Assembly (NCBI GenBank): GCA_043228905.1
Contig: JBHGNT010000007.1
Span: forward strand, 1,798,001-1,862,000
Reading direction: 5' to 3'
Origin: Azolla caroliniana
Lineage: Eukaryota; Plantae; Polypodiophyta
Length of the DNA: 64,000 nucleotides
The notes under the pieces were generated by a model that saw nothing but the letters and a program-made list of their open reading frames with translations, ran no database searches and was not told the DNA's origin. A program made the position numbers and the translations under genes. Numbering within the stretch: position 1 is the stretch's first letter; the number at the start of each line of letters is the position of its first letter. This document shows, piece after piece, positions 2,600 through 25,967 of the stretch.

Positions 2600-3037
2600 T
2601 GTCATGAGATGACAAGACTCGAACCCATGACCTTATGGTATATGGGTCGAGCTCTTAACCATCTCACCATCTATTGTAATTCATAGAATATTATTTTCAT
2701 TTATGTTTTATTATAAGAAAGTAATGTATATTCCAGATTTCTCTGGAACATTCTAGAAGCTTCAGGATTATTCCTGAGAACACTATAAAAGAAGGCACTA
2801 AGCATTATGTTGAACCAAATTGGTTCAACACCAGTCTTAAGCCTCTTAGTCGATTTGTACTTATCTTTCATATAATATAAGAGCTGTTGTCATCATCCTA
2901 TTTCTCTCTCTCTCTCCTCTTCTCACTTCCTCTCTCTCGGGAATCTTACGCAGTCCCGTCCTCTTAGTACTAATAGTACTAATAGTACTACTCTTCTTAG
3001 TACTAATTCCATCTCTGTTTTAGTACTATTCCCGACA
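2600..3037 (+). repeat. 5' LTR of chromovirus
   Basis: TGTCATGAG...CCCGACA; TATAAAA at 2784; direct repeat of 7845-8282. Confidence 0.97.
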
Positions 3038-3039
3038 GT

Positions 3040-3052
3040 TTGAACCAATTTG
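3040..3052 (+). promoter_or_regulatory. Non-tRNA primer-binding site (putative self-priming)
   Basis: TTGAACCAATTTG is the exact reverse complement of LTR 2816-2828 and lacks the TGG of a tRNA PBS. Confidence 0.75.
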
Positions 3053-3106
3053 TTCCTCTAGCCTACTTGTCACTCTCCCTCATCTTCCTACCCTTTCCCC
3101 TATACT

Positions 3107-4264
3107 ATGGCTACTGTTAGCGCCCAAGAATACCAATCCGTTTTCTCCGAGCTACAGTGCCTAAAAGAAAAGTTTGTTGCCTTGGAACAAGAAAACCAAC
3201 GGCTGATAGGGGATCTGCAACAAATCGCTCTAGAAAAACAACAAACGCAACAACAACATGGGGAGTTAGCGTTACGGGTACAACAACTCGAAGCAGCGTT
3301 GCAACAACAAGGATCCAGTCCCCAAGGATTTCATAAAGAGCCCAAGATTGGACTTCCTGTGAAATTTGATGGAACGCGTTCGCAATTTCGGGGATTCCTT
3401 AATCAGGTACGCTTAGTCATCCAGATGCATCCTTTCCGATATCCCACTGATGCATCTCGAGTCGGCCTAATAGGCACGCTACTTAGCGGCTCAGCCTTGG
3501 CATGGTTCGCTCCGCTTCTAGAAAAACAATCGCCCTTGCTTAATAACTTTGAAGATTTTATTGGTGAGTTTAAAGCCTGCTTTGGAGACACCGACAGCAT
3601 CAGGACGGCGATCAACAAGATCCGGCGATTGCGTCAAGGCGATCGTCCAGCCTCTGCCTACGCGGCGGATTTCCGCCTACTTGCTTCAGATATACCCTGG
3701 GATGATCAAGCACTAATGGAGCAGTTTCGCTATGGCTTGCGAAACGATGTCAAAGATCTACTTCTAACTTTCCCCGAAGAACCAAAGTCTCTTACGGAGG
3801 CAATCAGTCGAGCAGTTCGATGTGACAACCGCCTTTTTGAACGGCGTTCAGAACGTCAATTACAGATACCACGCTCTAGGCCAGAGCCCACTTACGCCGC
3901 AGTCGCGGCTAAACCGTTTGCACGAGACATACCTCAAGCAAATACTTCGACACCGATGGAGATCGATACCATGCGTCGACGCGGCCCGTTATCGGAAGAA
4001 GAAAAGCAACGACGACGTGCCAATCGATTATGCCTTTATTGCGGTGGACCAGGACATATCGCCATCAATTGTCCCCATAGGCCAAGAAGACAGGTAAATC
4101 AAATTGTCGCCTGTACTAAACCTGAGTCAATTCTTCCCTTCGGAGTGTCTGATAGTAGTAATAGTACTAATAGAGTGTCAGATAGTATTCATAGTACTAA
4201 TAGCCCAAGTATCTCAAATAAATTTGAAATCCTTAGTCAATTAGATGAAGAGTTAAACGATTGA
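3107..4264 (+). CDS. gag: Gag (coiled coil, PEG10/sushi-like capsid, CCHC zinc knuckle)
   Basis: 385 aa; EPKIGLPVKFDG, LRQG...AYAADFR, PMEID, CLYCGGPGHIAINC. Confidence 0.95.
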   Translation: MATVSAQEYQSVFSELQCLKEKFVALEQENQRLIGDLQQIALEKQQTQQQHGELALRVQQLEAALQQQGSSPQGFHKEPKIGLPVKFDGTRSQFRGFLNQVRLVIQMHPFRYPTDASRVGLIGTLLSGSALAWFAPLLEKQSPLLNNFEDFIGEFKACFGDTDSIRTAINKIRRLRQGDRPASAYAADFRLLASDIPWDDQALMEQFRYGLRNDVKDLLLTFPEEPKSLTEAISRAVRCDNRLFERRSERQLQIPRSRPEPTYAAVAAKPFARDIPQANTSTPMEIDTMRRRGPLSEEEKQRRRANRLCLYCGGPGHIAINCPHRPRRQVNQIVACTKPESILPFGVSDSSNSTNRVSDSIHSTNSPSISNKFEILSQLDEELND

Positions 4265-4306
4265 GTCCAGCCAAAATAGGAGCCATTTGGTTGGACAGCA
4301 GCCCTA
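4252..4306 (+). promoter_or_regulatory. -1 programmed ribosomal frameshift signal
   Basis: G_TTA_AAC heptamer at 4252-4258 in the gag/pol overlap, a 6-nt spacer, then an 11-bp stem 4265-4275/4286-4296. Confidence 0.75.
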
Positions 4307-7300
4307 GATCTGTACAGCCCATTAGTGGTTCCATTCCTTCCAAGCAAGTTAGCAATGTGTTCCTAGCCCAAGTCATTGTTAGTACTAAAAGTACTCCCCC
4401 AGTACCCGTCCTAGCACTTTTAGATTCCGGAGCTAATTCCTGTTTCATGGATCGAAATTTTGCCCAAGCTTCTCAGATATCCTTAAGAAAACTTCCTTGT
4501 CCCGCATCTGTAGTGGTCATTGATGGTCGTCCCATTGCTTCCGGGAATATTGTAGAAGAATCAGAACCCATTCAAGTTGTCCTAGGTAGTTTTGTGTGTA
4601 TAATATCATTTAATATAATTAGTAGTCCAGAGCATCCCATTGTCCTAGGATTACCTTGGCTTGAGTTACATAATCCAGCCATAGATTGGAGAACAAGAGA
4701 AGTCCGATATCGACCACCCCAAGAATCAACTCGCCGAGTTTCGACCATTTCACTCCATCAACTACGCGAAGAAGGACCCAAGGAGGCAATGTTCCTATTT
4801 TCCATATCAGTACATCCTTCCAACACTATTAAGAAGGACTCCTCAGTACAACTTCCGGCAAAATATCATCCTTATGCCGATGTATTTGACAAGGTAAAAG
4901 CCGGTACCCTTCCTCATCACCGTCCCTATGACTGTCCCATCGATTTACAACCAGGAACCGAGCCACCATGGGGACCAATTTACAACCTGTCACCCACCGA
5001 GTTAGAAGTCCTTCGAGCCTACATAGAGGAGAACTTGGCAAGCGGGTTCATCCGTCATTCGAAATCTCCGGCCGGTGCACCCATCTTCTTTGTCAAGAAG
5101 AAAGATGGCTCACTTCGTCTTGTCGTTGATTACCGCGGATTAAATAAAGTCACCATCCGGAATAGGTATGCACTTCCTCTTATATCAAGTCTTTTAGAGC
5201 GAGTTAATGGTGCCAAGTTTTTTACTAAAATCGACCTACGCGGAGCGTATAATCTCGTGCGGATCCGACCGGGAGATGAGTGGAAGACCGCTTTTCGCAC
5301 GCGGTATGGGCATTTTGAGTATACTGTTATGCCGTTTGGCCTAACCAATGCACCCGCAGTCTTCCAACACATGGCAAATGATATATTCAGAGACCTCTTG
5401 GATATCTGTTTGATCATTTATCTGGATGATCTGTTGATTTATTCGAAGACCCAGGAAGAGCACGACTCTCATGTACTATTAGTACTAAAGCGACTCCGCG
5501 AGAATGGTCTTTATGCCAAGCTAGAAAAATGTAGCTTTGACTGCAAGCAAGTGGAATTTCTAGGCTACGTCATCTCCTCAAAGGGCATCGCCATGGATCC
5601 AGCTAAGATCCAAACTGTACTAGAGTGGCAAATTCCACGGTCGGTACGAGATGTACAATGTTTTCTAGGTTTTGCTAACTTCTACCGTAAGTTTATACAG
5701 GATTACTCGAAGATTATTTTACCTCTCACACAACTTACGAAGAAGGGCCAAGCATTTCTTTGGTCCATTGAAGCAGATATGGCTTTTCGGCATCTTAAGA
5801 AAGCCTTTACATCAGCACCGATTCTAGCTCATGTGGATACAAGCAAACCATTCATCATGGAGGCCGACGCATCAGATTTCGCCCTCGGTAGCATCCTTTC
5901 TCAACAAGGTGATAAAGAAGAGTTGCATCCGGTGGCTTTTCATTCGCGCAAATTCGATGTCGCAGAAATCAACTACGAAATACATGACAAGGAGTTATTA
6001 GCCATCGTGGATTCATTTGTACAATGGCGGCATTTCTTAGAGGGCTCTCCACATCAGGTCATTGTCTTCAGCGATCATAAAAATCTTGCTTATTTTCAGA
6101 ACGCTCGCGTACTAAATCGACGGCAAGCTCGGTGGGCGCAATTCCTCACGCGTTTCGACTTCAAAATCACATATCGACCGGGGAAGCAGCAAGGAAAAGC
6201 AGATGCACTATCACGACGTTCATATCTTGCACCTCGTCCTGGTGAAGCAACATTTGATAATCAAAAGCAAGTAATCTTGGGACCAACACGATTGCACACG
6301 ACGCGGATTTTTCACACCCCGATGGATTCACGGATTACCGATGACATACGTGCAACCTTGAAGACAGATAGTTTTGCTCAAGACATCCTGGCGCACATTG
6401 ATACTTCTCGGGCATCCTGTTCTCAGTCTCAACAACCAGGTATTGACTACCGACAATTCGAATATCATGATGGTTTGTTATTCTTTAAAAAGCGCGTATA
6501 TGTCCCCGATTGCTCCTGTCGCCTTCAAATTGTCCAACATTGTCACGACACCCATACGGCGGGACATTTCGGTAGTACTAAGACGTTGGAGCTAGTGCAG
6601 CGATCTTTTTGGTGGCCCCACATGCGCCGTTTTGTCGACGACTACGTTCGGACCTGTGATGCTTGCTGCCGAGCAAAGATGCCACGACACCATCCATATG
6701 GCTTGTTGGAACCTTTACCAATTCCAAGTAAGCCATGGCAGTCTATTTGTCTTGATTTTATCACAGATCTGCCGGTCTCGAAAGGGTTCGATGCTATCCT
6801 AACCGTCGTCGATCGATATACGAAGATGGCACATTTTGTGCCATGTACTAAAGCCATCACTAGCGAGGAAACCGCCGCTCTTGTTATGCGTGAGGTTTTT
6901 CGGCATCATGGCCTCCCAGACAGTATTATCAGTGACCGAGGCCCGCAATTTGTCTCCAAATTTTGGCAGCATCTCTTCAAGATGCTCAAGGTCTCCTGCA
7001 ACCTCTCCTCCGGCTACCATCCTCAAACCGACGGACAGGCGGAACGAACAAACCAAACGCTGGAGCAATATCTCCGGTGTTTCCTGAGTTATCAACAGGA
7101 CGATTGGGTCGAGATTCTCCACTTTGCGGAGTTTGCGTATAATAATGCTATTCACTCCTCGACTCGGGTCTCCCCATTTTTCGCTTATACCGGTTTCCAT
7201 CCTCGCTGGTCGGTGATCGACACTCCGGAGCTACCTACCAACCCTCGTGCCGAGGATCATTTGGAGAGGCTACGCAAGATCCAGATGGATCTCTCTACTC

Positions 7301-7833
7301 ACCTTCGTCATGCTCAACACACACAGAAGACTTATGCGGATCGTCATCGGATTCCCTCCTCTTTTGCCATCGGAGATCGAGTATGGCTCTTACGTCGTCA
7401 CATCAAGACTACTCGACCGTGCGACAAGTTGGATTATCGACGACTCGGTCCTTTCCGTATTACGGGGAAGATTAATGATGTCACCTTCCGCCTTGATCTC
7501 CCTCCGCAGCTTCAGATACATCCGGTTTTCCATTGTTCTCTTCTTGAACCTTATAAAGCAAACACCATTCCCGATCGTGTGACACCACCGCCGCCCCCAC
7601 TGGAGTTGGACGCCGGCCCGGAGTATGAAGTTGCTGCCATCCTCGATTCCAAACTTGTTCGCAACAAACTCTATTACTTGGTCGATTGGCTCGGTTATAG
7701 TCCGAGTGAACGTACTTGGGAACCCGTCGAGAATGTTGCCAATGCACAAGATCTTCTTGCTGATTTCCACCGAAAGTATCCGGACAAACCCGGTCCGCAA
7801 GTAGCGCTGACTCGTTCCACTCGTCGTCTTTAA
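4261..7833 (+). CDS. pol: Pol: protease-RT-RNase H-integrase-chromodomain (reached by -1 frameshift)
   Basis: LLDSGA, YLDD, EADASD, HHCC zinc finger, DDE core, GPF motif, chromodomain EYEV...YLVDWLGY...TWEP. The frame has no ATG at its start. Confidence 0.95.
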   Translation: MSPAKIGAIWLDSSPRSVQPISGSIPSKQVSNVFLAQVIVSTKSTPPVPVLALLDSGANSCFMDRNFAQASQISLRKLPCPASVVVIDGRPIASGNIVEESEPIQVVLGSFVCIISFNIISSPEHPIVLGLPWLELHNPAIDWRTREVRYRPPQESTRRVSTISLHQLREEGPKEAMFLFSISVHPSNTIKKDSSVQLPAKYHPYADVFDKVKAGTLPHHRPYDCPIDLQPGTEPPWGPIYNLSPTELEVLRAYIEENLASGFIRHSKSPAGAPIFFVKKKDGSLRLVVDYRGLNKVTIRNRYALPLISSLLERVNGAKFFTKIDLRGAYNLVRIRPGDEWKTAFRTRYGHFEYTVMPFGLTNAPAVFQHMANDIFRDLLDICLIIYLDDLLIYSKTQEEHDSHVLLVLKRLRENGLYAKLEKCSFDCKQVEFLGYVISSKGIAMDPAKIQTVLEWQIPRSVRDVQCFLGFANFYRKFIQDYSKIILPLTQLTKKGQAFLWSIEADMAFRHLKKAFTSAPILAHVDTSKPFIMEADASDFALGSILSQQGDKEELHPVAFHSRKFDVAEINYEIHDKELLAIVDSFVQWRHFLEGSPHQVIVFSDHKNLAYFQNARVLNRRQARWAQFLTRFDFKITYRPGKQQGKADALSRRSYLAPRPGEATFDNQKQVILGPTRLHTTRIFHTPMDSRITDDIRATLKTDSFAQDILAHIDTSRASCSQSQQPGIDYRQFEYHDGLLFFKKRVYVPDCSCRLQIVQHCHDTHTAGHFGSTKTLELVQRSFWWPHMRRFVDDYVRTCDACCRAKMPRHHPYGLLEPLPIPSKPWQSICLDFITDLPVSKGFDAILTVVDRYTKMAHFVPCTKAITSEETAALVMREVFRHHGLPDSIISDRGPQFVSKFWQHLFKMLKVSCNLSSGYHPQTDGQAERTNQTLEQYLRCFLSYQQDDWVEILHFAEFAYNNAIHSSTRVSPFFAYTGFHPRWSVIDTPELPTNPRAEDHLERLRKIQMDLSTHLRHAQHTQKTYADRHRIPSSFAIGDRVWLLRRHIKTTRPCDKLDYRRLGPFRITGKINDVTFRLDLPPQLQIHPVFHCSLLEPYKANTIPDRVTPPPPPLELDAGPEYEVAAILDSKLVRNKLYYLVDWLGYSPSERTWEPVENVANAQDLLADFHRKYPDKPGPQVALTRSTRRL

Positions 7834-7844
7834 GGGGGAGATAG
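7832..7844 (+). promoter_or_regulatory. Polypurine tract
   Basis: AAGGGGGAGATAG immediately before the 3' LTR. Confidence 0.9.
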
Positions 7845-8282
7845 TGTCATGAGATGACAAGACTCGAACCCATGACCTTATGGTATATGGGTCGAGCTCT
7901 TAACCATCTCACCATCTATTGTAATTCATAGAATATTATTTTCATTTATGTTTTATTATAAGAAAGTAATGTATATTCCAGATTTCTCTGGAACATTCTA
8001 GAAGCTTCAGGATTATTCCTGAGAACACTATAAAAGAAGGCACTAAGCATTATGTTGAACCAAATTGGTTCAACACCAGTCTTAAGCCTCTTAGTCGATT
8101 TGTACTTATCTTTCATATAATATAAGAGCTGTTGTCATCATCCTATTTCTCTCTCTCTCTCCTCTTCTCACTTCCTCTCTCTCGGGAATCTTACGCAGTC
8201 CCGTCCTCTTAGTACTAATAGTACTAATAGTACTACTCTTCTTAGTACTAATTCCATCTCTGTTTTAGTACTATTCCCGACA
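7845..8282 (+). repeat. 3' LTR of chromovirus
   Basis: Identical by eye to 2600-3037. Confidence 0.97.
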
Positions 8283-11200
8283 ATATGTTTACAAGAAACT
8301 CATCTATCGGATAAGCGAATAGCTACATATGGGAACATATTGAAAGGAAATTGGAAATACTATTGGAATCCTGCGATTGGCAATCAAAACAAGCATGGCG
8401 GTTTATGTATAGCCTTAGCAGAGAAATGGAGTCAGCAAGTGCTAGATTGTCATGTATTGGTCGATGGAAGAGCTCAATACATCATCCTATTGATCTCAGA
8501 CCTAAAGTTGGGCTTTCTTAATATTTATGCTCCGAATTCGAGAGGGCTAGAAAGGAATTTTGGTTTAAGATAGGAACTGATTTACTGTCAGTGGATCATT
8601 GGTGTATGGTGGGTGATTTTAATATGATTGAGGACTTTGGTGATACGATTGGAGGATCTCATGTTTTGATAAGTGCATCTGAGTTGATAACTTGGGAAAG
8701 ATTATGTCTATCATTCAGATTGCAATATGCATGGCATGTTACATCTTTTGCTCGATTAAAAGATTCATTAAGTTTCTCTCAATCAAATAGAAGAGAACAA
8801 GGGGGTAAATCTATCACGTTTGGATAGAATATACATTGATGATTTTTTTGTTGGGAAGGGTGGGGAGATTGGTATTGTATCAGGCTCTTTATTCTCAGAT
8901 CATGCACATGTGATTATGGTTGTTGGAAAACAACCATATCATAACAATAGTTGTGGTCGTATTCCAAAATGTATTTATTTGGATACATCTCTTAGACATG
9001 ATCTTTTACAGATGTGGAAAGTGCAAAATATATCTTCTGAAAATGTCTTGCAAATGGTTAACTCTGCTATTCAGAGTACATCGAAATTTCTTAGATTGCA
9101 AGTATTGAAGACTATGGAGAAATATAAGTTACAAATGGCTGCTAATAGAAGGGCTTTGAAGTCTCTTCAACATTTTCAGGAAAAATGTCCACATGCATCT
9201 TGGGTTGAAATGGAGTTGGGTCACTTAAGAAATGAACTAGCAAATTTAGAAGATAAGATATCTCAAACAAAGTTTCATGCTGCTGCTACAAAATGGGCTA
9301 GATTAGGTGATAATGTGAATTCCGAATTTTTCGCATATTATAAAGGTGGTCATTCAAGTAGTTATATGAGGCAACTTCAAAGGGAAGATGGGTCTATTAC
9401 AAAAGATATTAATGAAATGAGAGACATTGCTACGTCTTTTTATAAAAATTTACTGAATACCCAACAATTTTCAGTTCAACAACTCCAAAAAAGGAAAATA
9501 GTTTTGGATTGTCTAGAACATAAGGTCTCAAGTGAGATGGCCGAATCATTGGTAAAGGCAATCTCTTCTGTAGAGGTAAGAACTGCATTGGTGGTTGTTG
9601 GGAAGAATGTATGCCCAGGAAATGATGGATTGTCACCAGAATTCTTTTTAGAATATTGGGAGGATATAGCCGATGTTTTCACATCCTCTTTACAAGAAGT
9701 TTTTAAATTGGGAAGGATGCCTATTGAATGGAATGAAGGAATGGTTTATTTGATTCCAAAGTTAGAAGGTGTGGTGGATGATATTAAGAAATGGAGGCCT
9801 ATAACTCTTTTAAATATTGTATATAAAGTTTATGCTAAATTATTAGCAACATGTTTGCAACCTTTTCTTCCACATATTGTGCATAAAACTCAAACAGGCT
9901 TTATACAAGAAAGGAGTATATTTGATAATATTTTCATGTTTTGGGACGTGATAGCAATAGCTCAAGAAACAAAACAAGAATTGATAATATTGCTTTTGAA
10001 TTTTGAGAAAGCATATGACATAGTCGATTGGAATTTCTTATATGAAGTTATGGGTCGTCTAGGTCTTCCAAGTGACTATGTTAAAGCTATTTTTGCATTA
10101 TATAATTCAGCATCTAGTCGAGTTCTTGTTGGAGGAGCACTAGGTAATATTTTTCCGATTACTAGATCGGTGAGACAAGGATGTCCTTTGGCTCCATATT
10201 TATTTCTATTAGTGGGAGAAACCTTTAGTGCGTTCTTGCATAAAAATAGGTTATCTATTAAAGGAATACAGTGGCCAGGTGTGGAGGAGGTTGTGTTAGA
10301 TTGTGAATTTGCAGATGACACAACACTATACATTGTAGGAGATGACAGAAATATCTGTAATGTGCAAAATGTGATCCATGATTTTTGTGATGCTTCAGGT
10401 GCAATTATCAATTGGCATAAATCAGTGGGATTTTGGGTTGGGGAAGGTCGTACTCCTACTTGGTGTCCAAACAGTGGATTCTGTTGGATACGAAAGGGCT
10501 CTCCTGTGAGATATTTAGGGTGCCAAGTGGGAATTAATCTTCCTCCAGAAGCTCATACACAACCATTACTACTTTCTTTGAGGAAGAAATTGATCTTTTG
10601 GAAATCTACGAATTTGTCACTTGCGGGGAGGCTAGTTATTTCTATTCGAGTATTACTCTCCTCAATGTGGTATATTCTATCCTCTTTGTTATTCTCCAGA
10701 TCTTTGTTGTTAAAGTTACAGAGATTGAATAGAAATTTTTTGGGGATCTACCGATTTGAAGAATGTTAGACCAAAGGTAGCTTGGAAAACTATGATAACA
10801 CCGACTTCTCAAGGGGGTTATGGTTTGGTAGATCCCCTGATGCAATGTAAGGCATTATTGGCAAAATTTATAGTACGAGGATTACTGCCATGAAATGAGC
10901 TGTGGAAGATGCTTCTTCAGTTGAGAATGAAAGAGGTCTTCCCGAAAACTAGAGGTGAATGGACAAGGTCTCTCTGATGTTGGTTTATTCCTAACTTTCA
11001 TTCACATAAGATAGTGTTTCAAAATGATATTCTTTGCTACGATAAAGCGAGCTTGGTGGTCCATAAAGGATAATTTGCAACAAGTTCGACCCACTTCGAT
11101 GGATGAATGGTTACATCAGTCATTGGTTTGGAATCCTTTATTTCTAGATGTTGAGGGTCTATGTTGGGGAGGAGAGTCAGATTAAATTGGGTTCAAGTGG

Positions 11201-11323: not shown

Positions 11324-11416
11324 TGTAAAAAGTAGTGTGCGGAAGGAAGTATGAAGGCCGAACAGGAGGAAGAAAATTCAGGTTCAATGGAGAGCTTGAG
11401 CTTACGCAGTATACTC

Positions 11417-11475
<59 letters not shown>

Positions 11476-11805
11476 CACACGAACTATATTCAACGACCCA
11501 ATCTCTATTCACCACACTCTATACATATGTGTGTTCAATGAACACTTTTATACAAGTCCTAGAAGGATTGACCGAAGTACTGACAGTACTTCAATACTCA
11601 TTAAGAGCTCCTATACTAACTCCCAAATATATTCCTCACGGAATATCTTTCCTAATGGCCTCCCGGTTTACGCACTCAGCCTAACCGATCGGTCCCAACC
11701 GATCCGGTCCTCAGCTTCTTCAGCCGATCCGGCCGATGTTGAGCTTGTCTCTCAACACTCCCCCTGAAGCTCAACTTGAGGCTCTTCGGGATCTTCGGGC
11801 TCACA
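11324..11805 (-). repeat. 3' LTR of copia 1 (contains a (GA)n microsatellite)
   Basis: TGTAAAA...CTCACA on +; direct repeat of 16652-17116. Confidence 0.92.
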
Positions 11806-12024
11806 GCTCCGGTTTCTCCTGGCTTCACGCCTCGCTCGCGCTCCACGGCCTGTTTGACTCCACGCGCTTCGACCCTTCCAGTTGGCTTGTCTGCTCATGT
11901 GGCCCTTATCAGCTCTTCTGTTGTTGCGGTGTTGACGTTTCTCCTGCTGCCTTTTCTTCCGCTTGGGCCTCGGTTGATTCAGCGTATCTGAATCAAACAT
12001 CCGAACTGACTCGACTACCTCCGA

Positions 12025-15000
12025 TCAGTTTTCGCTCTCGTCCAAGTTGGTTGTCTCCAACTCGTCTTCGGTCTTCTTGCCCTCGGTGGCGTCATCTTCC
12101 CCATGCGTGGTTAGCTTCGGCTCTCTCCTTCGGTTGCTCCCCTTCTGTCCGCTTCCGGACTTTTCCGCGGGTCCGCCCTCGACTTCTTCAGCCGATCCGA
12201 AGTCCAACTTGACAACCGAGTCAACCGACTCGGTGTCGCGGTCTCTGCTCCTTTCCTGCTGCCTTGCTTGGTCGTTCGGGACTATTCTCCCCCTCAAGTT
12301 TGGCACGTCGAGGTGATGCAATCCGAGCGCACCTGAGAATTGCCGCAACTTGTCCAGACCAAGAGGCTTGGTGAAGATGTCGGCAGTCTGCCGATCCGTC
12401 GGAACGTACTGAAGTTCGACTTCACCGGAAAGGACATGCTCACGGAAGAAATGGTAGTGCACCTCAATGTGCTTGGTCCGTGCGTGGAAAACGGGGTTTT
12501 TCGCAAGCTGGATGTTGTTGAGGTTGTCGCAGTCGATCGTCGTTGGATCTGACACCTCCTCTTGCAGGTCCCTAAGCAGCCGCTTCAACCATATGGCTTC
12601 GCATGTCGCGACAACCGCTCCTCGGTACTCAGATTCGGTGCTCGACAATGCAACTGTCGGCTACTTCTTACTGCTCCACGTGATCACGACACTCCCGAGG
12701 GAGAACGCGTATCCGGACGTGGATCGGCGATCGGCGGTGTTGCCAGCCCAATCAGCATCGGTGTAGCCGACTAATTGCGCGGTTGCACCGGTTCGATATA
12801 GCAGTCCCCGGTCCTTAGTGTCGTTGACATACCGAAGTATGCGTTGCACACACTGGAGGTGCTCCTCGGTAGGTCACGCTATGAACTGATTGATCACTCC
12901 GACCGGATAACTGAGGTCGGGTCGGGTGATGGTCAAGTATATGAGGGTTCCAACAATTTGTCGGAACCTCGTCAGGTCGCATACCTTTCCCGTATCGGGA
13001 CGAAGCTTGACGGTTCTGTCCAGAGGAGTCGAAACGGACTTACAGTTGGCCATCCCAAATTTGAAGAGCATACTCAGCACGTAATGACGTTGGCTGATCA
13101 ATATGCCTTCGGGGGTACGGATCACTTCGATCCCGAGGAAGTAATGAAGGTCCCCCAGATCCTTCATGTCGAACGATGCCACAAGCTGGAGCTTCACGCG
13201 GTCGATTTCACCTAGGTCGGCGCCGGTGATGACCAAGTCATCAACATATAGTAAAATACTAACCAGTCCGAGTCGACCTTTCCGGATGAACAGGGAAGAG
13301 TCTGATTTTGACGTGACGACGCCCATCCGACGTAGTTGTTGCGTGATCTTCGCGTTCCAGGCACGCGGAGCTTGCTTCAGTCCGTAAAGGGACTTCTTCA
13401 GTCTGCATATTGCCAAGGAGTTCGTTCCAGAGTGAAATCCGGGGGGTTGTACCATGTACACCTGTTCCTCAAGGTCACCTTGCAGGAACGCATTCTTTAC
13501 ATCCATCTGATGTAAGTGCCACCCCTTCACTGCAGCTACTGCGAGCAAAACACGGACGGTCGTCATTTTCGCGACCGGCGCAAACGTCTCATTGTAGTCG
13601 ATGCCGTGTTTCTGCGCGTAGCCCTTTGCCACTAGCCGAGCCTTGTACCGGTTGACCGAGCCATCGGTGTTGTACTTGACCTTGTACACCCACCTACACC
13701 CGATCGGTTTTACCCCTGTTGGTGCATCAACCAGGTCCCAGGTCTCGTTCTCCGCCAATGCGTGCATCTCTTCCTCCATCGCGGCACGCCAATTCGCGTC
13801 TTTAGCCGCTTCTTCGTAGCTCTCCGGCTCACGCACTTCTGCTACACGGGTCATGTACGCATAATGATGCGCCATGTACTCGTTGTATCCGAACCGCAAA
13901 ACAGGATTCTTCTGGCGGGTAGATCGGCGTAGTCTCACATTAGCCGATGTCGAGGCCTTCTCGGTCGACGCGGTCTTCATCTTTAAAGACCCGTCACCGG
14001 TTCCCTTGGAGTCGAACTCGCGTCGGTCTGACTTGTTCTTATCCGTGCCGGAATCCGACACCTTCTTCTTCCCTTTCTCTTTGCGCGTAAGCCATCTCCT
14101 CGGCTTCCTGCGCGGGGAATGCACGGCCGAGTCTCCACTACTCGCCGGCTCTTCATTGGACTGGTCGTATCGACTCAGTCGTCCAATCGGTCTACTTAAG
14201 CGGAGTGAAATCAGACTCTCTTCGCGGGTCTCGATTTCGGGCTCATCCGGAGGCATCTCGGCTTCGCTGACCTCATCGTCAGAACACGGATTGGAATCGG
14301 GGTTCGGAGTCGGGGGCTGGTACCAGGACACGGACTCGTCAACCACAACGTCGCGGCTAACACGCGCTTGTTTGGTGCGAGGGTTATAGCACTTATAACC
14401 CTTCTGCTCGTTCGAGTAACCGACCAAGATGCATTTCTCGGCCTTTGCGTCCAGCTTCCTCCTTTTCTCCTTCGGTACATGCACATACGCAATGCTACCG
14501 AACACCCTCAAGTGTCGCAAGTTCGGCTTCGTTCCGAAATATAGCTCGTGCGCCGACACTTTGTCTCCGATCTGGTTCTGGATGTATACCGCAGTCCTTA
14601 CCGCCTCGGCCCAGTAGAACTTGGGCAAGCTCTTCTCCTCCAGCATTGTCCATGCCACTTTCACAACTGATCGATTCTTCCTCTCGGCCACGCCGTTATG
14701 CTCCGGCGTGTATCTACAACTGAATTCGCGACGAATTCCCATTTGTTGTAGGTAACCATTGAATTGACCGGAAAAGTACTCTTTCCCGCCATCCGACCGC
14801 AAGCACTTGATCTTTCATCCCGTTTCCGTTTCCACGAACCCTTTGAGGTCCCGGAAACAGTCGAAGACTTCGCTCTTCCTCTCAATGAGGTAGATCCACG
14901 TGTGCCGCGTGTGGTCGTCAATGAAGGAGACGAAATATCGGCTCCCTCCAAGACTAACGTTTTGTGTCGGCCCCCATACATCGGAGTGTATAAGGTCGAG

Positions 15001-16582
15001 CTTGTTCCGGCTCTGGTTTCGCTCGTTGGGGAAGGGAAGTCGGTGTTGCTTCCCAAGCTGGCAGGCTTCACAAATTTGTGCCTTTCGGCCACTAAATTTG
15101 GGCAATCCGAACACTACATGTTTCGTTTGCAGATCTTGAAGCCGCTAGTAGTTGACGTGGCCTATCCGCTTGTGCCACAAGTCGATGTCCGACTCGGATT
15201 TTTTATCCCTTCGCGAACATTGCGGTGCCGCCGTCAGTGGAGGAACATCCTCCCGTCTCTACGCCCTTGCGCAATCACACGGCCTTCTTCCTCAATGAAG
15301 CACCGGAGGTGTGTAAACCGAACCTCCATCCCTTGGTCGACGATCTGTCCGACCGAGACCAAGTTCTTCGTGATTGTCGGAACGTGCAGCACGTTCATGA
15401 GTTTCCCTTTCTGCCCGACATGGCTAAGGGGAAATCTCCGACATTCGTGATCAGATGCGGAGTGTCGTCTCCTGTTGCGACTACTCCAGGTTGTATCGGT
15501 TTTTCAAGGTACGAGAACCACTCCTTATGGCTCGTCATGTGGTTTGACGCGTCGGAGTCTACATACCACACCTCGTCTGATCTCGGGGTGGTCTGTTTCA
15601 TTGAGTTTGCTTCGTGTCTCGTCACGAAGGCAGACCCTTCTCCGGCTCTCCCGGAGTCTTCGGCGTAGTGCGATCGCTGCCGATTTCCCTTTTCGGTATG
15701 TCCGGAGTCGTTTCCGGAACTGGTTCTCTCCGAATCGGTGCGCTTCTTCTAGCACTCACTTTCCCTGTGGCCTTTCTTGCCACAGTACCAGCACTCCGCA
15801 ATGGCCTTCCCTTGCCGGTTCTCATCGCTTCGACTCCCCCTGTTTCCGGAGGGTCCGGAGTTGCTGTCGGCATCACTTCGGTGCCTTCTTCCTTGATCTC
15901 GTCGGTCGCCTCCATTGCGCGCCGACTTGCCTCGTCCTCCATGTCCACGGGGCCTAACTCCCTCCGTGTACAGCATTCTGTTGTTGGTATGCGTGCTTGT
16001 AGACGCACCCGCGTGGTTCTCCTCTACCAGGAGCATTGATTGTAAGTCGAAAAAGGACGGTGTATTCTCCCGGGTACACACAGCCGTTCGGAACGCTCCG
16101 AACTTCGACGCCAAACCTCCGAGACAGATCTAGACCATCTCGCTCTCCTCGATGTTCACCTCTATGGAGGCGAGGGAGTCACAGATATCCTTGATCTTCG
16201 AGGTATAGTCCGCCACTGACAAGTCGCGTTGTCGTAGGTTGCTCAACTCCTGTTGGAGCCGAAGCTTCCTGGCTTTGGTGCTCGCGGCGAAAATCTTCTT
16301 CAGATTTTCCCACGCACCCTTCGGCGTCTTTGCATCCCGAACATAGCTCAATAGTTGTTCGCCCACACACGACGCGAAGCAGTATAATACCCTGCTCGCC
16401 GATTGCTCCCACGACGGGAAGCCTCTGTGTGTCGATTCGGGTGCCGCGTCATTAGCTCCTTCGACATAACTCCAGTGGCCGTGCCCGAGCAGGTACTGGT
16501 GCATCTTGTAGGACCAAGACGCGTAGTTGGTTCTGTCGAGCTTCTCTGTTGGAAGCGAGCTCGCCATGCCTCTATCCATCAT
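12025..16582 (-). pseudogene. Copia gag-pol polyprotein broken by stops and frameshifts
   Basis: Gag (NYASWSYKM; CWYCGKKGHRESEC), protease (WYVDSDAS), integrase (HSDVWGP, RSDGGKEY), RT (QMDVKNAFL, LLYVDD) and RNase H (YTDADWAG, TKHIEV) are spread over at least seven ORF fragments. Confidence 0.93.
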
Positions 16583-16651
16583 TCTTCTTGTTCTTCTTCG
16601 TCAAGCTATGTCGGCTGCAGAGAGGTTCTCAACCCTCGCGCTTTGATACCA

Positions 16652-17116
16652 TGTAAAAGGTAGCGTGCGGAAGGAAGTATGAAGGCCGATTAGGAGGAAG
16701 AAAACTCAGGTTCAATGGAGAGCTTGAGCTTACGCAGTATACTCGGGAGAGACAGAGAGAGTGAGAGAGAGAGAGAGAGAAAACACACGAACTATATTCA
16801 ACAACGACCCAATCTCTATTCACCACACTCTATACATATGTGTGTTCAATGAACACTTTTATACAAGTCCTAGAAGGACTGACCGAAGTACTGACACTAC
16901 TTCAATACTCATTAAGAGCTCCTACACTAACTCCCAAATATATTCCTCACGGAATATCTTTCCTAATGGCCTCCCGGTTTATGCACTCGGCCTAACCGAT
17001 CGGTCCCAACCGATCCGGTCCTCAGCTTCTTCAGCCGATCCGGCCGATGTTGAGCTTGTCTCTCAACACTCCCCCTCAAGCTCAACTTGAGGCTCTTCGA
17101 GATCTTCGGGCTCATA
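16652..17116 (-). repeat. 5' LTR of copia 1
   Basis: Adjacent to the PBS; the terminal CA reads TA on +; followed by TSD GAAGT. Confidence 0.92.
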
Positions 17117-18256
17117 GAAGTTGTAGTTACCCTTGCAGGATAATATACTTTCTAATTGTCATAAGTGGATGGGATTATTTTCAAATTTTCAGGTTTTACT
17201 TGGAGTTCGTGGCCTTAGAGATGATGGTACTTAAGGTCACAAATCAAAGCATAGGTCTAGATTGTGTGATATTCCTTAAGGTTGTAGCGGATATGCCTTT
17301 TTTTTAAACTAATGGAAGGAAATGTTTTCAAAAATAATAATAATCTAGTCAATCTATTATCTAATATTATTCGTAACGGAACGAGGATTTTTGGCTCAAA
17401 ATTCTAAGTATGGTGTGTGCAGTTCCACGGATTTGGGGCCAAATTGATAGAAAATGAATCTTTGGGTTAACGCACCAAAAGATTCATTACACCACCACAA
17501 ATTCGCCTCGGGGGCAAAAGTGGAATTTTCAGATCATGATTTTGTTCATTGAGCAGAAAGTTACAAACACACAAGAAATCTTCGGACAATGGGAGTCAAA
17601 ATTGCTATGTCGATTGAAGCCTTTGTCCCTCCATTGGATTGACATCCAACAACAAGGGGACAAATTCATAATTTTGACAAATAATTTCCTCTCAGTTTGA
17701 GGAAAAGTTCCTCAACTACCAAGTCAACCCTCAAGGTTCCAGGAAATTTTCCTTGAACCAAGTTTCCTTGTTTCAAGGAAATGTTCCTTTAATTGAGCCT
17801 TCGATCGAAGGCAACCTCAAGTCTAGCCATTGTTGTTGTTGTTGTCGCCACCTTTGTCATTTTCGTCCATTGTTGCTTGTTATCAGTGCCTCCGTTTGTC
17901 GTTGTCTTTAGTTGCCATATTGTTGTTACTAGCTCTGCTATTGTTGATACATCCTTACTTGCAGTCGTTGCTGCCTACTACATGTCCACTCCATCTACAT
18001 ACATACAAAAATAAACATAAATAAACTCACATCAAACATAATCAAACATCTTAGAACACATACAGATACACATAAACTCACATTTATCTTGTTAGTTGTA
18101 TTCGCATACATACAAGTATATCTATTTACACACATTGAATTAGACTTATATATATACATACACACACACACACACACATTATCAAACATCAAACAAATAC
18201 AAAAAAAATACATACATACTTTCTCACGTACACATACCAAAGTTTGTGCTCATATG

Positions 18257-19922: not shown

Positions 19923-20781
19923 TGTTAGGGATTGACGCTTTCAAAAACCTTCACCTCTCGGCCACAACCGAGGAAACACGAATCAATGCAGCAGAAAATC
20001 AAAAACACAGAGAGAGACTCGAATGCACAGGGTTTAGCGTGGAAAACCCTAGACGGGAAAAACCACGGGAGTGCAAGACTCCAACTATCACTATACGCAG
20101 GGAATGTACAATGGCGAGCTGCAAGGCGACGACCTTGAGCTCGCTGTCCTCGCCACAGGCGGCGGTATTACACAGAGGCGTCGACCTCTTCCTTTCTCTC
20201 TCTCTCACTCTCTCTCTCGGCTGCTCTCACTTCACTCCCTCTAAGTGGAAAACAGAAAAATGAGCAACAACTACAAAATTGTTTGCCCTAAGTCATATTT
20301 ATACACAAATGACTTTCGGGCTATTTACAAATATAGCCTCGAGGGCCCTTGGCAAACATATTCACAAATATGTCCCCGCAACAACTACAAAACTGTTTGC
20401 CCTAAGTCATATTTATACACAAATGACTTTCGGTCTATTTACAAATATAGCCTCGAGGGCCCTTGGCAAACATATTCACAAATATGTCCCCGCATCCGGA
20501 TCTCTCTCCGGGTACATTCGTCATCCGGCTCCGTAGCCGGGGTCTTCATCATCCGGATCCGAAACCGGGTCTTCATCATCCGGTTCCGATACCGGGTACT
20601 TCATCATCCGGATCCGAAACCGGGTCTTCATCATCCGGCTCCGTAGCCGGGGTCTTCATCATCCGGATCCGAAACCGGGTCTTCATCATCCGGTTCCGAT
20701 ACCGGGTACTCCTCATTCGGGTCTTCATTCCCGATTCCCGGACATCTGACCATCCCATCCGGAGGGACCGTAATCCCAACA
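19923..20781 (-). repeat. 3' LTR of copia 2 (859 bp)
   Basis: Contains a 114-bp tandem duplication (20264-20491) and seven 27/28-bp CCGG-rich units from 20521. Confidence 0.95.
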
Positions 20782-20791
20782 AACTCCCCCT

Positions 20792-23700
20792 TCACTTCGG
20801 CATGGGATGTCTTTCCAGTCCGACCCTCTTCCGGCACGCTTCCAGCTTGTCGGGTGTGAGCACTTTGGTCAGCATATCTGACCCGTTCTCGTCCGTGTGG
20901 ATCTTCGTCAGCACGAACTCCTGGTCTTCTATCCTTTCCCGGATCCAGTGATATCTTCGCTGGATGTGCTTCGTCCGGGAGTGATAGGCCGCGTTCTTCG
21001 CAAGGTGGATGGCACTCTGACTGTCGCAGTAGAGTCGGTACTCCTCCTGCCGGATACCGAGCTCTCTAATGAAGTCCTTCATCCATATTATTTCCTTGCC
21101 GGCTTCAACAGCCGCCATGTACTCCGCCTCCGTGGTTGACAACGCAACCGTCTTCTGCAGCCTCGACTGCCACGAAACAACTCCCCCTGCATACGTCATC
21201 ACATACCCTGATGTGGACCGGCTGGTATCTGCATCAGCCGACATATCCGAATCGGTAAAGCCGTCGAGTTCGGGCTTACCGGAGCCGAATCGGAGGCACA
21301 CGTTTGCCGTGCCCTTCAGGTATCGGAGTATCCACTTGGCCGCGTTCCAGTGCTCTTTGCCGGGATTGCTCATGTACCGGCTCACCACTCCGACTGCATA
21401 TCCTATGTCCGGTCTTGTACACACCATTGCGTACATCAAGCTTCCGACGGCAGAGGCATATGGTACTTTCATCATGTCCTCCTTCTCAGCCTTTGTCTTG
21501 GGGCTTTGCTTGCTGGACAACTTGCAGTTTGTCGGGAGGGTTGACCCGACCGGTCTTGCTTCCGACATGTTGAACCGGTGAAGCACCTTTGTCACGTACT
21601 TCTCCTGTGACAGCCACAACTGCTTCTTCTTCCGGTCCCGGATGATGTGCATCCCTAGTATTTGCCTCGCCGGACCCAGGTCCTTCATTGAGAAGGTTCG
21701 GTGAAGCGCTTTCTTCAGCATCCGTATCTTGACCTGGTCCCGTCCGACGATCAACATGTCGTCCACGTACAGGAGGAGTATTAGAAAGTCTCCTCCTTCG
21801 AACTTCTTCACAAACACGCAGTGATCGGACTGCGTTTTGTGGTACCCTTCGTCGGTCATGAAAGAGTCGAACTTCCGGTACCATTGCCGGGGAGCCTGCT
21901 TCAGTCCGTAAAGGCTCTTCTTCAACCGGCATACCAGGTGCTCCTTCCCTTTCTTCTCGAATCCTTCCGGTTGCTGCATGTAGATCTCTTCTTCGAGGTC
22001 ACTGTGAAGGAATGCCGTCTTCACGTCCATCTGTTCTACCTCGAGGTCCATGCTTGCCGCTATGCTCAGCACCGTCCGGATGGAGGTCATCTTCACTACC
22101 GGGGCAAATATCTCGTCGAAGTTGACGCCCTTCTTCTGCTGGAACCCCTTCACCACGATCCTGGCTTTGTATCTCGGGGGTTTTCCGGCATCTCCCGGTT
22201 TCAGCTTGAACACCCACTTGTTTCGAAGTGCCCGCTTTCCTTTCGGCAACTCCACAAGTTCATATGTGTGGTTCTCATGCAGGGAATCCATCTCCTCCTG
22301 CATGGCACTTAACCACCTGCGGCTATGGGTGTCAAGCTTTGCTTCTTCAAAACTCTCCGGCTCCCCCTCGTCGGTTAGCAACACGTGCTCTGGTTCCGGA
22401 AATCTCCGGGGGGCCCTTCTCTCTCTTAGAGGATATCTCCGTTCCGGAGCTTCGGTAACCGGCTCCTCCGTTTCCTCTTCATCCGAATCCATTTCGGGAT
22501 CGGGGCCGGTTCCGGTATCAGTTTCATCTTCCTCAGCCGGTTCTGTTTCTTCACCGTCTTCGGCCGGATCCTCGAGTGCTAACCGGTCCCTTGCCGGTCG
22601 GGACTGCTCCTCGTAGAGTTGATCCTCACCGGTCGACTTGGAGCTCTTCATCTTCTTCTCCGACTCCCAGTCGGCGAGTGTCTTGTCCTCCATGAAGATG
22701 ATATCACGACTCCGGAATATCTTTTTGTCGACCGGGTCCCATACTCGGTAGCCGAACTCGTCATCGCCGTAACCGAGGAATATGCATGGCCGGGTCTTTG
22801 GATCTAGCTTTCCTCTCCGGTCCTTTGCCACATGCACATATGCGAGACACCCGAACACCTTCAGATGCCGGTAGGATACTTCCCTACCGGTCCACACTCT
22901 CTGCGGCGTGTCTCCGTCCAAAGGTACTGAGGGTGATTTGTTTATCACGTATGTCGCCGTCGACATTGCCTCAGCCCAAAACCCCTTGGGTAATTTCGCA
23001 TGCGCCAGCATACTCCGGACCCTCTCCATTATGGTCCGGTTCATCCTCTCGGCCAGCCCGTTCAGTTCCGACGTCTTCGGCACAGTAAACTCGAGCCGGA
23101 TTCCCTTCGAGCGACAGTACTCCTCGAACTGCCCCCGGTATTCCCCTCCGTTATCCGCTCGTATCGCTTTCAGCTTCTTGCCGGATTCCCTTTCCACTCT
23201 CGCGTGGAGTTCTTTGAAGACGCACAACACTTGGTCCTTTGTCTTCAACGGTGCCGTCCACAGCTTCCGGCTGTGGTCATCAATGAATGTCACGAAGTAC
23301 TGGGCTCCGCCATGTGACTTCGTTTCTACTTGACACACGTCAGTGTGCACCAACTCCAATGGTGCGCTACGTCTCGTCGGTGGCCTTGAGTGGAAGGAGG
23401 TTCGGTTCTGCTTACCGGCCAGGCAATCGGTGCACTTCTCCAGGTGCACATGCTTCACTGGAATAAGGTTGTCTTCTGCAAGCCTCTTCATCCCCTTCTC
23501 ACTCATGTGGCACAGTCTCTTGTGCCACAGCTCACCGGCAGTGTCGGCTGCCACGTTCAACTCCTCCGGACACAACCAGGCATTCATAAGGTACAGTGTG
23601 TTGACTTTCCGGGCCCGAGCCACTATCAGGCTCCCCTTGCTGAACTTCATTACGCAGTTCCGGATGCTACCTGTGTAGCCTTCATCGTCTAGCCTCCCGG

Positions 23701-24865
23701 CCGAAATCAGGTTCAATCGAACCTCCGGAACGTGTCGGACATCCTTCAGCAACATTTTGCATCCGGTCGAGGTTGTCAACCACACGTCTCCTATGCCGGC
23801 AATCCGGCACGTACCTTCATTTCCCATCCGAACACAGCCATGCTCACCGGCTGCGTAGGATGAGAAGTATCTTCTTTCCGGGGTCAGGTGGAACGACGCT
23901 CCGGAATCGACCACCCAGGTAGTCTCATCGCCGGCAATGTTTAGTTCACCTTCTTCGGTGATGAGCATGATCTCCTCTTCACTTGCCGCGAGTGCCGTCG
24001 TTCCTTTCCGGTCCTGCCTTCTCCGATCCGAACCGTTCCGGTCCGTGGCTCCCCGGTAAGCACCGTTCCGTTCCGAAGACTTCTTCGAATCGGTGTCGTC
24101 GGCTCCGTTGTCTTTTCGGTAATGCCGACAATTCTTTCGGATGTGCCCCGGCTTCCCACAGTGGAAGCATGTGGGCCTTCCTCTTGACTGCGACCGGGTC
24201 CCCGACTTCGCCCGTCTTTGCGGACTCCAGTTCCGTTGTCTTCCCCGATCCGATTCGGTAAGCAGCATCTTCGGATCGGAGGCCGGTTCTTTATCTCTCC
24301 GACGCGCTTCTTCGTTCAAAATGCTTGTCTTTACCGTTTGTAGGGACAAGTTATCTTCGGTGCAGGAGGTGCTGAGAGTCACCACCAAGTTCTCCCAGCT
24401 TTCCGGCAATGTACACATCAGCATGATGGCTTGCATTGCATCCTCCAACGGGAACTTGATCGCAGCAAGCTGGTTCACGAATCCCATGAACGTGCTTACG
24501 TGTTCCACCATACTCTCGCCGTCCTGGTACTTGAGGTTCACTATCTTCCTCATCAGGGAGGTCCGGTTCAACGCATTCTTCCTCTCGTAGAGGCCCGACA
24601 GCTTCTGCCACATCTCATATGCGTTGGTGTCGTTCGCCACATGTTGTAGAACGCTCACGTCGACGTATTGCCGAATGGTTGCAACGGCTTTCCGGTTCAG
24701 AAGCCTCCATTCCGTCTCAAGTACCCCCTTGGGTATTTCCGACCTGTCGATCGGTTCATACAGGTCCCGAACAATGAGCAGATCCTCCATCTTTATCTTC
24801 CAGTCGGCGTAGTTCTGCGCATTCAGCACCATCATCCCCGGCTGCCCGCTGCTGCCGCCTTCCAT
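20792..24865 (-). CDS. Copia Gag-Pol polyprotein, intact
   Basis: First ATG at 24865; CFHCGKPGHIRKNC, WVVDSGAS, HTDVC/RADNGGEY, QMDVKTAFL, LLYVDD, FTDSD, TKHI. Confidence 0.95.
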   Translation of the reverse strand: MEGGSSGQPGMMVLNAQNYADWKIKMEDLLIVRDLYEPIDRSEIPKGVLETEWRLLNRKAVATIRQYVDVSVLQHVANDTNAYEMWQKLSGLYERKNALNRTSLMRKIVNLKYQDGESMVEHVSTFMGFVNQLAAIKFPLEDAMQAIMLMCTLPESWENLVVTLSTSCTEDNLSLQTVKTSILNEEARRRDKEPASDPKMLLTESDRGRQRNWSPQRRAKSGTRSQSRGRPTCFHCGKPGHIRKNCRHYRKDNGADDTDSKKSSERNGAYRGATDRNGSDRRRQDRKGTTALAASEEEIMLITEEGELNIAGDETTWVVDSGASFHLTPERRYFSSYAAGEHGCVRMGNEGTCRIAGIGDVWLTTSTGCKMLLKDVRHVPEVRLNLISAGRLDDEGYTGSIRNCVMKFSKGSLIVARARKVNTLYLMNAWLCPEELNVAADTAGELWHKRLCHMSEKGMKRLAEDNLIPVKHVHLEKCTDCLAGKQNRTSFHSRPPTRRSAPLELVHTDVCQVETKSHGGAQYFVTFIDDHSRKLWTAPLKTKDQVLCVFKELHARVERESGKKLKAIRADNGGEYRGQFEEYCRSKGIRLEFTVPKTSELNGLAERMNRTIMERVRSMLAHAKLPKGFWAEAMSTATYVINKSPSVPLDGDTPQRVWTGREVSYRHLKVFGCLAYVHVAKDRRGKLDPKTRPCIFLGYGDDEFGYRVWDPVDKKIFRSRDIIFMEDKTLADWESEKKMKSSKSTGEDQLYEEQSRPARDRLALEDPAEDGEETEPAEEDETDTGTGPDPEMDSDEEETEEPVTEAPERRYPLRERRAPRRFPEPEHVLLTDEGEPESFEEAKLDTHSRRWLSAMQEEMDSLHENHTYELVELPKGKRALRNKWVFKLKPGDAGKPPRYKARIVVKGFQQKKGVNFDEIFAPVVKMTSIRTVLSIAASMDLEVEQMDVKTAFLHSDLEEEIYMQQPEGFEKKGKEHLVCRLKKSLYGLKQAPRQWYRKFDSFMTDEGYHKTQSDHCVFVKKFEGGDFLILLLYVDDMLIVGRDQVKIRMLKKALHRTFSMKDLGPARQILGMHIIRDRKKKQLWLSQEKYVTKVLHRFNMSEARPVGSTLPTNCKLSSKQSPKTKAEKEDMMKVPYASAVGSLMYAMVCTRPDIGYAVGVVSRYMSNPGKEHWNAAKWILRYLKGTANVCLRFGSGKPELDGFTDSDMSADADTSRSTSGYVMTYAGGVVSWQSRLQKTVALSTTEAEYMAAVEAGKEIIWMKDFIRELGIRQEEYRLYCDSQSAIHLAKNAAYHSRTKHIQRRYHWIRERIEDQEFVLTKIHTDENGSDMLTKVLTPDKLEACRKRVGLERHPMPK

Positions 24866-24896
24866 TTTTTGCACTGCAGTCGCTCTGATACCAGAT

Positions 24897-25696: not shown

Positions 25697-25967
25697 AGAA
25701 ACACCTTAAGAAGCTTTCCAAACAAAACTATATTGTTTGTGATGATCACTGACATGGTCAAGGGCAATAGCACACCCCCTCGTCCCCCCCCCCCCTCCCC
25801 CCCCCCAACGCTTGTTTATAAATTATAATCTCGTTTGTATGCATAATATTGGCTTATTTATAAGCAAACTAAAATACTAATGTAGAAAACATATTTTATC
25901 TTACAAGTTAATTTCTTGTGGATTGCAACAAAATAAGTGCTACACCAATAATAAAAACGCAAAGAAT

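What the first reader, a model, noticed from the sequence alone, without database searches (positions are those of the whole stretch)
2784..3052. tRNA-independent self-priming, with a PBS mimic forming a hairpin at the U3/R border
Seen: there is no TGG PBS. 3040-3052 is perfectly complementary (13 nt) to 2816-2828, which starts 32 nt after the TATA box, where the mRNA 5' end is expected. The same primer segment is the 3' arm of the palindrome GTTGAACCAA-A-TTGGTTCAAC (2809-2829). Established: S. pombe Tf1 and the Tf1/sushi group self-prime with the first ~11 nt of the mRNA. Inference: the full hairpin exists only in the 3' LTR part of the RNA, where it could mask the second primer copy or aid strand transfer.
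Basis: partly seen in the sequence, partly recalled or inferred. Interest (0 to 1): 0.7.

Follow-up and report, generated by a model that had tools for sequence, protein, structure and literature searches.

The report
Self-priming retrotransposon with primer-guard hairpin
This young plant jumping gene likely starts copying itself from the first 12 bases of its own RNA, a trick already predicted for its group, and a small hairpin beside that primer likely guards against mis-priming, because related families that lack the hairpin left several times more scrambled copies in the genome.

Summary
Observation confirmed. The element is an intact Ty3/gypsy chromovirus with identical 438-bp LTRs and no tRNA primer site. 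Self-priming is already predicted in print for 83% of moss Tcn1 elements, and this scan reached that verdict before in other genomes.

New evidence: primer and PBS co-vary across six LTR families at TATA+32/33. The conserved duplex is 11-12 nt, so the start is likely 2817, not 2816. The genome holds about 150 integrated mis-primed copies in which U3+primer joins inverted U5. Most fetched ones have a 5-bp target duplication, and the inverted piece often stops at the first base after the primer, the predicted cleavage site.

The U3 arm is kept in four RT lineages and absent in two. Mis-primed copies make up about 1% of LTRs in armed families A, B and F, against 5.6% and 8.5% in unarmed ones. Armed family E (3 of 64) does not clearly fit, and lineage effects are not excluded. 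A guard role, likely acting on plus-strand DNA, is about even odds. No RNA data placed the start site.

The parts
2600..3037 (+). 5' LTR (TG...CA, 438 bp), identical to the 3' LTR
   Evidence: flanks ATATA / ATATG, a 5-bp target duplication with one mismatch
2616..2668 (-). tRNA-like stretch (A-box-like and T-arm/B-box-like) at the U3 5' end; side observation
   Evidence: best alignment to 97 host tRNA sequences beats 100 of 100 shuffles
2784..2791 (+). TATA box TATAAAAG
   Evidence: primer starts 32-33 nt downstream in six families
2808..2816 (+). U3 arm (PBS mimic), 5' side of the hairpin
   Evidence: a TGAACC or GAACC arm in families A, B, E, F
2817..2828 (+). predicted self-primer AAATTGGTTCAA, first 12 nt of the RNA; cleavage predicted between 2828 and 2829
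2808..2830 (+). U3/R hairpin, 10-bp stem with 3-nt loop
3038..3039 (+). GT spacer between the LTR end and the PBS
3040..3051 (+). primer-binding site TTGAACCAATTT; base 3052 and the next few vary among copies
3107..4264 (+). gag (Retrotrans_gag, Ty3_capsid, CCHC knuckle)
4249..7833 (+). pol frame overlapping gag: protease, RT, RNase H, integrase, SH3, chromodomain
7832..7844 (+). polypurine tract AAGGGGGAGATAG
7845..8282 (+). 3' LTR; second hairpin copy at 8053-8075 and second primer copy at 8062-8073

Best explanation
This is an intact Tcn1-type chromovirus that likely primes reverse transcription with the first 12 bases of its own RNA, and whose U3 arm likely folds over the second, U3-attached copy of that primer so that it mis-pairs with the PBS less often. 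Steps: (1) transcription likely starts at about 2817 (inferred); (2) bases 1-12 pair with the PBS (complementarity and covariation shown); (3) RNase H would cut after base 12, as in Tf1 after base 11 (inferred from the end points of mis-primed copies and by analogy); (4) the PBS is likely re-copied from the RNA primer each cycle, which leaves a variable 3' edge (variability shown, cause inferred); (5) plus-strand DNA then carries both a PBS and a primer copy, and their mis-pairing gives the integrated U3-primer-inverted-U5 copies (copies shown, route inferred); (6) the arm would sequester that primer copy wherever U3 is attached, that is in plus-strand DNA and 3' LTR RNA, but not at the RNA 5' end (folding predicted, function inferred from a correlation). 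I put self-priming at about 0.93 and the guard role at about 0.5.
For: Covariation: primer/PBS pairs AAATTGG/CCAATTT, AAATCGG/CCGATTT, ATTCGG/CCGAAT, ATTCCGG/CCGGAAT and ATTCTGG/CCAGAAT. PBS base 13 leans to the complement of the LTR -1 base: G:A 10:4 in family A against 1:5 in C1, p=0.05. A generic pattern finds 156 junction copies (control 8) against 5,765 normal LTRs. 11 of 16 fetched junction elements have a perfect 5-bp target duplication. L096 is a whole folded-back LTR with two U3 ends and duplication GTAGA. The inverted piece ends within 4 nt of the first base after the primer in 14 of 62 mapped copies, duplicates included. The reciprocal junction was found in 0 of 7 candidates. Junction share of LTRs: A 21 of 2,060; B 13 of 1,470; F 1 of 131; window's young subfamily 2 of 168; unarmed C1 20 of 360; unarmed D 44 of 516. 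In folded plus strong-stop DNA the primer pairs with the arm at 0.90-0.998 in six armed examples and with the PBS at 0.98 in C1. The arm is kept in RT lineages 76-90% identical whose neighbouring spacers are unrelated.
Against: Only about five independent lineages are compared (A/B, E and F against C and D), so the small p-values are pseudo-replicated. Family E has the strongest arm (-15 kcal/mol) yet 3 of 64 junctions (4.7%, interval 1-13%). Weak-armed C2 has 1 of 46. A and B have the same rate despite different stem strength (p=0.73). Normalised per U5 end, the A to C1 gap shrinks to about threefold (16 of 557 against 9 of 99). In unarmed D the fold model pairs the primer locally (0.80), not with the PBS. 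Three distant self-primers in metagenome loci have no arm. The stem shows no compensatory change, and my patterns fixed its GGTTCAA side. The start site and the cleavage were not measured.
Confidence: 0.5

Rival explanations
1. Self-priming is right, but the arm has no guard role. It is a promoter or initiator by-product, or a palindrome made and perfected by template switching, and families differ in mis-priming for other reasons such as RT, RNase H, U5 structure or age.
For: The last two arm bases fit a pyrimidine initiator in all families (consensus recalled). Families C and D thrive without the arm. E is not low and A equals B. Few independent contrasts exist.
Against: The arm persists in four RT lineages with unrelated adjacent spacers. 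The youngest armed subfamily is still low, 2 of 168 (p=0.019 against C1; 0.065 if a looser match is added). F is low on a separate branch.
Confidence: 0.33
2. The hairpin works mainly in RNA at the 3' LTR, either stopping the second primer copy from competing for the PBS or shaping first strand transfer or 3' end formation.
For: It is predicted to fold in RNA at -11.8 kcal/mol, close to the primer:PBS duplex at -12.7. It would exist only where U3 is transcribed.
Against: Junction copies mostly begin exactly at LTR base 1 with no upstream polypurine tract (18 of 21 in family A), which fits PPT-primed plus-strand DNA better than a 3' LTR RNA primer. The two roles are not exclusive.
Confidence: 0.12
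3. A host tRNA fragment ending in the T arm primes the element, and the LTR match is secondary.
For: The invariant core GTTTGAACC is complementary to 9 nt of the T arm of host tRNA-Asn and a tRNA-Met.
Against: The self match is longer (12-13 nt), its outer bases co-vary with the LTR in each family, and inverted pieces stop at the base after the LTR primer. Only 97 tRNA sequences of 17 types were tested.
Confidence: 0.04

Closest known systems
Plant Tcn1-clade chromoviruses (REXdb; Neumann et al. 2019, PMC6317226; passages and one supplement row read)
   Same: Chromodomain-bearing Ty3/gypsy, overlapping gag and pol, 5-bp target duplication, size 5,683 bp within the listed 5,466-9,444 range, no tRNA PBS, self-primer predicted (83% of 1,500 elements).
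   Different: That paper predicts self-priming from complementarity alone. The passages I read mention no U3 arm, start site, cleavage site or mis-primed copies.
Tf1/Tf2 of Schizosaccharomyces pombe and the Tf1/sushi group (review passages PMC7175516, PMC10085805, PMC4600332)
   Same: The RNA 5' end pairs with the PBS and is predicted to be cut off as the primer. Tf1 cDNA keeps a single-stranded PBS copy and non-templated bases (PMC11042837 passages), which fits the variable PBS edge here.
   Different: 12 nt here (11 in family D) against 11 in Tf1. The three-duplex 'pretzel' is not clearly seen. No U3 anti-primer hairpin appears in the passages read; the original Levin papers were not held.
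Integrase-independent Tf1 insertion through the PBS tail (Li et al. 2022, PMC11042837; passages)
   Same: A single-stranded PBS copy on cDNA anneals to complementary sequence and makes rearranged elements.
   Different: There the tail pairs with chromosomal PBS sites and gives tandem direct copies. Here it pairs with the LTR primer copy, gives an inversion, and most products carry a 5-bp target duplication.

Membership tests
Ty3/gypsy chromovirus | Domain order protease-RT-RNase H-integrase with a C-terminal chromodomain | tested here: met
   best solved relative is Ty3 Gag-Pol, E 6e-146
Tcn1 clade | RT/RH/INT phylogeny groups with reference Tcn1 elements | not testable with these tools
   No REXdb reference sequences on hand. 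Named homologs include a basidiomycete fungus and Closterium, a weak hint only.
Tcn1 clade | Overlapping gag and pol, 5-bp target duplication, size 5.5-9.4 kb | tested here: met
   against the supplement row; this copy's duplication has one mismatch
Tcn1 clade | Chromodomain with aromatic cage | tested here: inconclusive
   Y, W and Y are present at the recalled positions in the translation; not aligned to a reference
Tcn1 clade | Host is a moss or club-moss | not tested
   Plant host inferred from U-box/ARM genes and copia elements in the window; moss is inferred from the element type only
Tf1-type self-priming | No PBS complementary to a tRNA 3' end | tested here: met
   No TGG; best host tRNA match is 9 nt, internal, among 97 sequences of 17 types
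Tf1-type self-priming | PBS complementary to the RNA 5' end | tested here: inconclusive
   Complementarity and covariation at TATA+32/33 are met; the start site itself is unmeasured
Tf1-type self-priming | RNase H cut at the primer 3' end | tested here: inconclusive
   Indirect: inverted pieces end within 4 nt of the next base in 14 of 62 mapped copies
Tf1-type self-priming | Three-duplex 'pretzel' leader structure | tested here: inconclusive
   The central duplex forms in 5 of 5 family folds; flanking duplexes are not consistent

The most novel reading that the evidence does not exclude
Self-primed LTR retrotransposons have a built-in hazard: every plus-strand LTR carries both a PBS and its complement. 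Several plant lineages keep an anti-primer hairpin in U3 that cuts this mis-priming several-fold, and the genome's integrated mis-primed copies are a countable fossil read-out of primer length, cleavage site and error rate for each family.
Probability: 0.45. Interest if true: 0.62.

Novelty: new variant of a known kind. Interest (0 to 1): 0.46.

Why it matters
Self-priming has been shown by experiment in yeast Tf1 and only predicted for plant Tcn1 elements. Here the genome itself records the predicted primer end and a per-family error rate. If the arm is a guard, it is a cis-acting fidelity device I did not find in print, and it explains how tRNA-free priming avoids its own second primer copy. 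The same count can be run on any assembled genome with self-primed elements.

Tried and rejected
RNA evidence: no RNA holder listed with raw reads; the contigs laid cannot show a start site. One contig in run X5 has the same U3-primer/inverted-U5 joint; it is a single contig of depth 3.5 and I do not count it as support. Simple genomic inversion between primer and PBS was rejected for A/B: 0 of 7 candidates were the reciprocal junction; this pattern was not run for C, D, E or F. Assembly artefact was rejected for most junction copies: jump points differ and 11 of 16 have target duplications. A dose response within A/B was not seen. C2 was uninformative (1 of 46). Rfam and ARAGORN found nothing relevant. 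The metagenome scan gave 79 loci, few with usable LTRs; three distant self-primers had no arm and one E-type locus (L287) had it. One search was mis-spaced and is not used. Literature searches for a U3 hairpin or fold-back products in self-primed elements returned no listing that describes one; Levin 1996 and Lin and Levin 1998 were not held, and Butler 2001 and Goodwin and Poulter 2001 were not read. Additional file 1 of Neumann 2019 (per-element table) did not appear among the supplement hits and could list these primers.

Full report
THE ELEMENT. The finding lies in the 5' end of an intact Ty3/gypsy element at 2600-8282. Its LTRs (2600-3037, 7845-8282) are identical over 438 bp, with a polypurine tract before the 3' LTR. 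Gag and an overlapping pol frame carry protease, RT, RNase H, integrase and a chromodomain. It is inserted in the endonuclease region of a LINE. The host is a plant, likely a moss (inferred). Two copia elements in the same window have ordinary TGGTATCA primer sites, an internal contrast.

THE OBSERVATION. 3040-3052 is the exact reverse complement of 2816-2828, the TATA box starts at 2784, and no TGG follows the LTR. A 13-nt match occurred in 0 of 20,000 shuffles and a 10-bp stem in 7 of 2,000. The palindrome spans 2808-2830 and folds as a 10-bp stem with a 3-nt loop.

SELF-PRIMING: COVARIATION. Related LTR families in the same genome keep the layout while the sequence changes on both sides: AAATTGG/CCAATTT (A, C), AAATCGG/CCGATTT (B), ATTCGG/CCGAAT (D), ATTCCGG/CCGGAAT (E), ATTCTGG/CCAGAAT (F). 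A few single copies mismatch. The primer begins 32-33 nt after the TATA box in each. The conserved duplex is 12 nt (11 in D), so the likely start is 2817. The best match to a host tRNA is 9 nt in the T arm, among 97 sequences of 17 types.

SELF-PRIMING: THE PBS EDGE. The bases just after the PBS vary among near-identical copies. At base 13, hand counts gave T 69, G 10, C 9, A 4, other 8 in the first 100 of 541 family A rows, and T 65, G 1, C 9, A 5, other 10 in 90 of 99 family C1 rows after dropping 9 junction copies. The base before the start is C in A and T in C1, so G and A are the respective templated extensions; G:A 10:4 against 1:5 gives p=0.05. This is modest support that the PBS is re-copied from the RNA 5' end. 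Tf1 cDNA keeps such a copy and gains non-templated bases (PMC11042837, passages).

MIS-PRIMED COPIES. A generic pattern found 156 places where U3 and the primer run straight into inverted U5 (control 8), against 5,765 normal LTRs. Of 84 junction loci examined, most have distinct flanks and jump points; five small same-flank groups were found. Of 16 fetched at full length, 11 have a perfect 5-bp target duplication, 2 have one mismatch and 3 were unresolved, so they are likely integrase products. L096 is a whole LTR plus PBS folded onto a second U3, with duplication GTAGA. The inverted piece could be mapped in 62 of 84 loci. It ends within 4 nt of the first base after the primer in 14, within 25 nt in 20, and runs past the primer in 5; duplicates are included. 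That end point is where minus strong-stop DNA would stop after the primer is cut off. The reciprocal junction was found in 0 of 7 candidates in the A/B lineage, against a plain inversion. An earlier scan note (e1-9507202) describes one such fold-back copy in another genome; I read it after finding these.

THE HAIRPIN: DISTRIBUTION. An arm of TGAACC, or the bulged form in B, precedes the primer in A/B, E and two F lineages and in metagenome locus L287. It is reduced to a weak 4-5 bp stem in C and absent in D. The RT tree leaves these lineages as a polytomy at 76-90% identity (17 rows), so retention and repeated gain cannot be told apart. The spacers between TATA and arm are unrelated among A/B, E and F. 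Predicted RNA energies: A -12.4, B -6.1 to -10.8, E -15.1, F about -7, C about -3, D -1.4 kcal/mol.

THE HAIRPIN: TEST OF MASKING. Whole-genome exact counts of junction copies among all LTRs: A 21 of 2,060 (1.0%), B 13 of 1,470 (0.9%), F 1 of 131 (0.8%), E 3 of 64 (4.7%, hand count from 97 rows), C1 20 of 360 (5.6%), C2 1 of 46 (2.2%), D 44 of 516 (8.5%). E and F include a looser match; strict counts are 2 and 0. Two of the 20 C1 hits are doubtful. The window's own young subfamily has 2 of 168, so youth alone does not raise the rate (p=0.019 against C1). In folded plus strong-stop DNA the primer pairs with the arm in all six armed examples and with the PBS in C1; in D it pairs locally. Against the guard: E is not low, C2 is not high, A equals B, the A to C1 gap is about threefold per U5 end, and about five lineages are all that is independent.

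MECHANISM. Transcription likely starts at 2817; bases 1-12 pair with the PBS and would be cut off by RNase H, as shown for Tf1 at 11 bases (PMC7175516, passage). Plus-strand DNA then holds a PBS copy at its 3' end and a primer copy beside U3. Their pairing gives a double-stranded U3 end that integrase can use, hence the junction copies. The arm would occupy the primer copy wherever U3 is attached and leave the true primer free. Junction copies start at LTR base 1 without a polypurine tract in 18 of 21 family A cases, which favours DNA over 3' LTR RNA as the mis-pairing strand.

COMPARISON AND VERDICT. Self-priming is predicted for 83% of 1,500 Tcn1 elements (PMC6317226, passages and a supplement row); an earlier study found no evidence of it in the Selaginella element SM-Tcn1 (PMC2864245, passage). 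Tcn1 membership fits on anatomy but was not tested by phylogeny. My searches listed no paper describing a U3 anti-primer hairpin or such counts; key older papers were not available. The priming mode is a known kind. The hairpin and the fossil read-out make it a new variant, with the guard role at about even odds.

Noticed in passing
window 2616-2668, minus strand (and 7861-7913): The U3 5' end reads as a degenerate tRNA (A-box-like TGGTTA and T-arm/B-box-like GGTTCGA). It beats 100 of 100 shuffles in families A, C1, D and E but not in B or F1. It may be an antisense Pol III promoter or TFIIIC site. One literature search listed no obvious description; those papers were not read.
   Followed up: partly
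window 2822-2833: The primer end plus the next bases, GGTTCAACRCC, fits the tRNA T-arm/B-box consensus (recalled), and CRCCA is kept in all families although it does not pair with the PBS. It may mark the cleavage site or hint at a tRNA origin of the self-primer.
   Followed up: partly
window about 2490-2599 and 8283-10769: The element sits inside the endonuclease region of a LINE; the frame resumes after the 3' LTR with ICLQETH and an RT follows.
   Followed up: partly
window 11324-17117 and 19923-25354, minus strand: Two copia elements with ordinary TGGTATCA primer sites; the second has one long open frame and further duplicated LTR-like blocks at 20378-20782 and 25238-25697.
   Followed up: no
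L096 (G000:C4, near 19610140): A self-contained folded-back LTR with two U3 ends and a perfect 5-bp target duplication.
   Followed up: yes
G000:C1:24088108-24088812: Five family F promoter/primer units in tandem at a 164-bp period.
   Followed up: no
L035, L036, L038, L065: Another gypsy family whose LTR also has GGTTCAA or GAGTTCAA after a TATA box; L065 has an ordinary TGGTATCA primer site.
   Followed up: no
window 43320-48350, minus strand: Host U-box/ARM-repeat gene.
   Followed up: no
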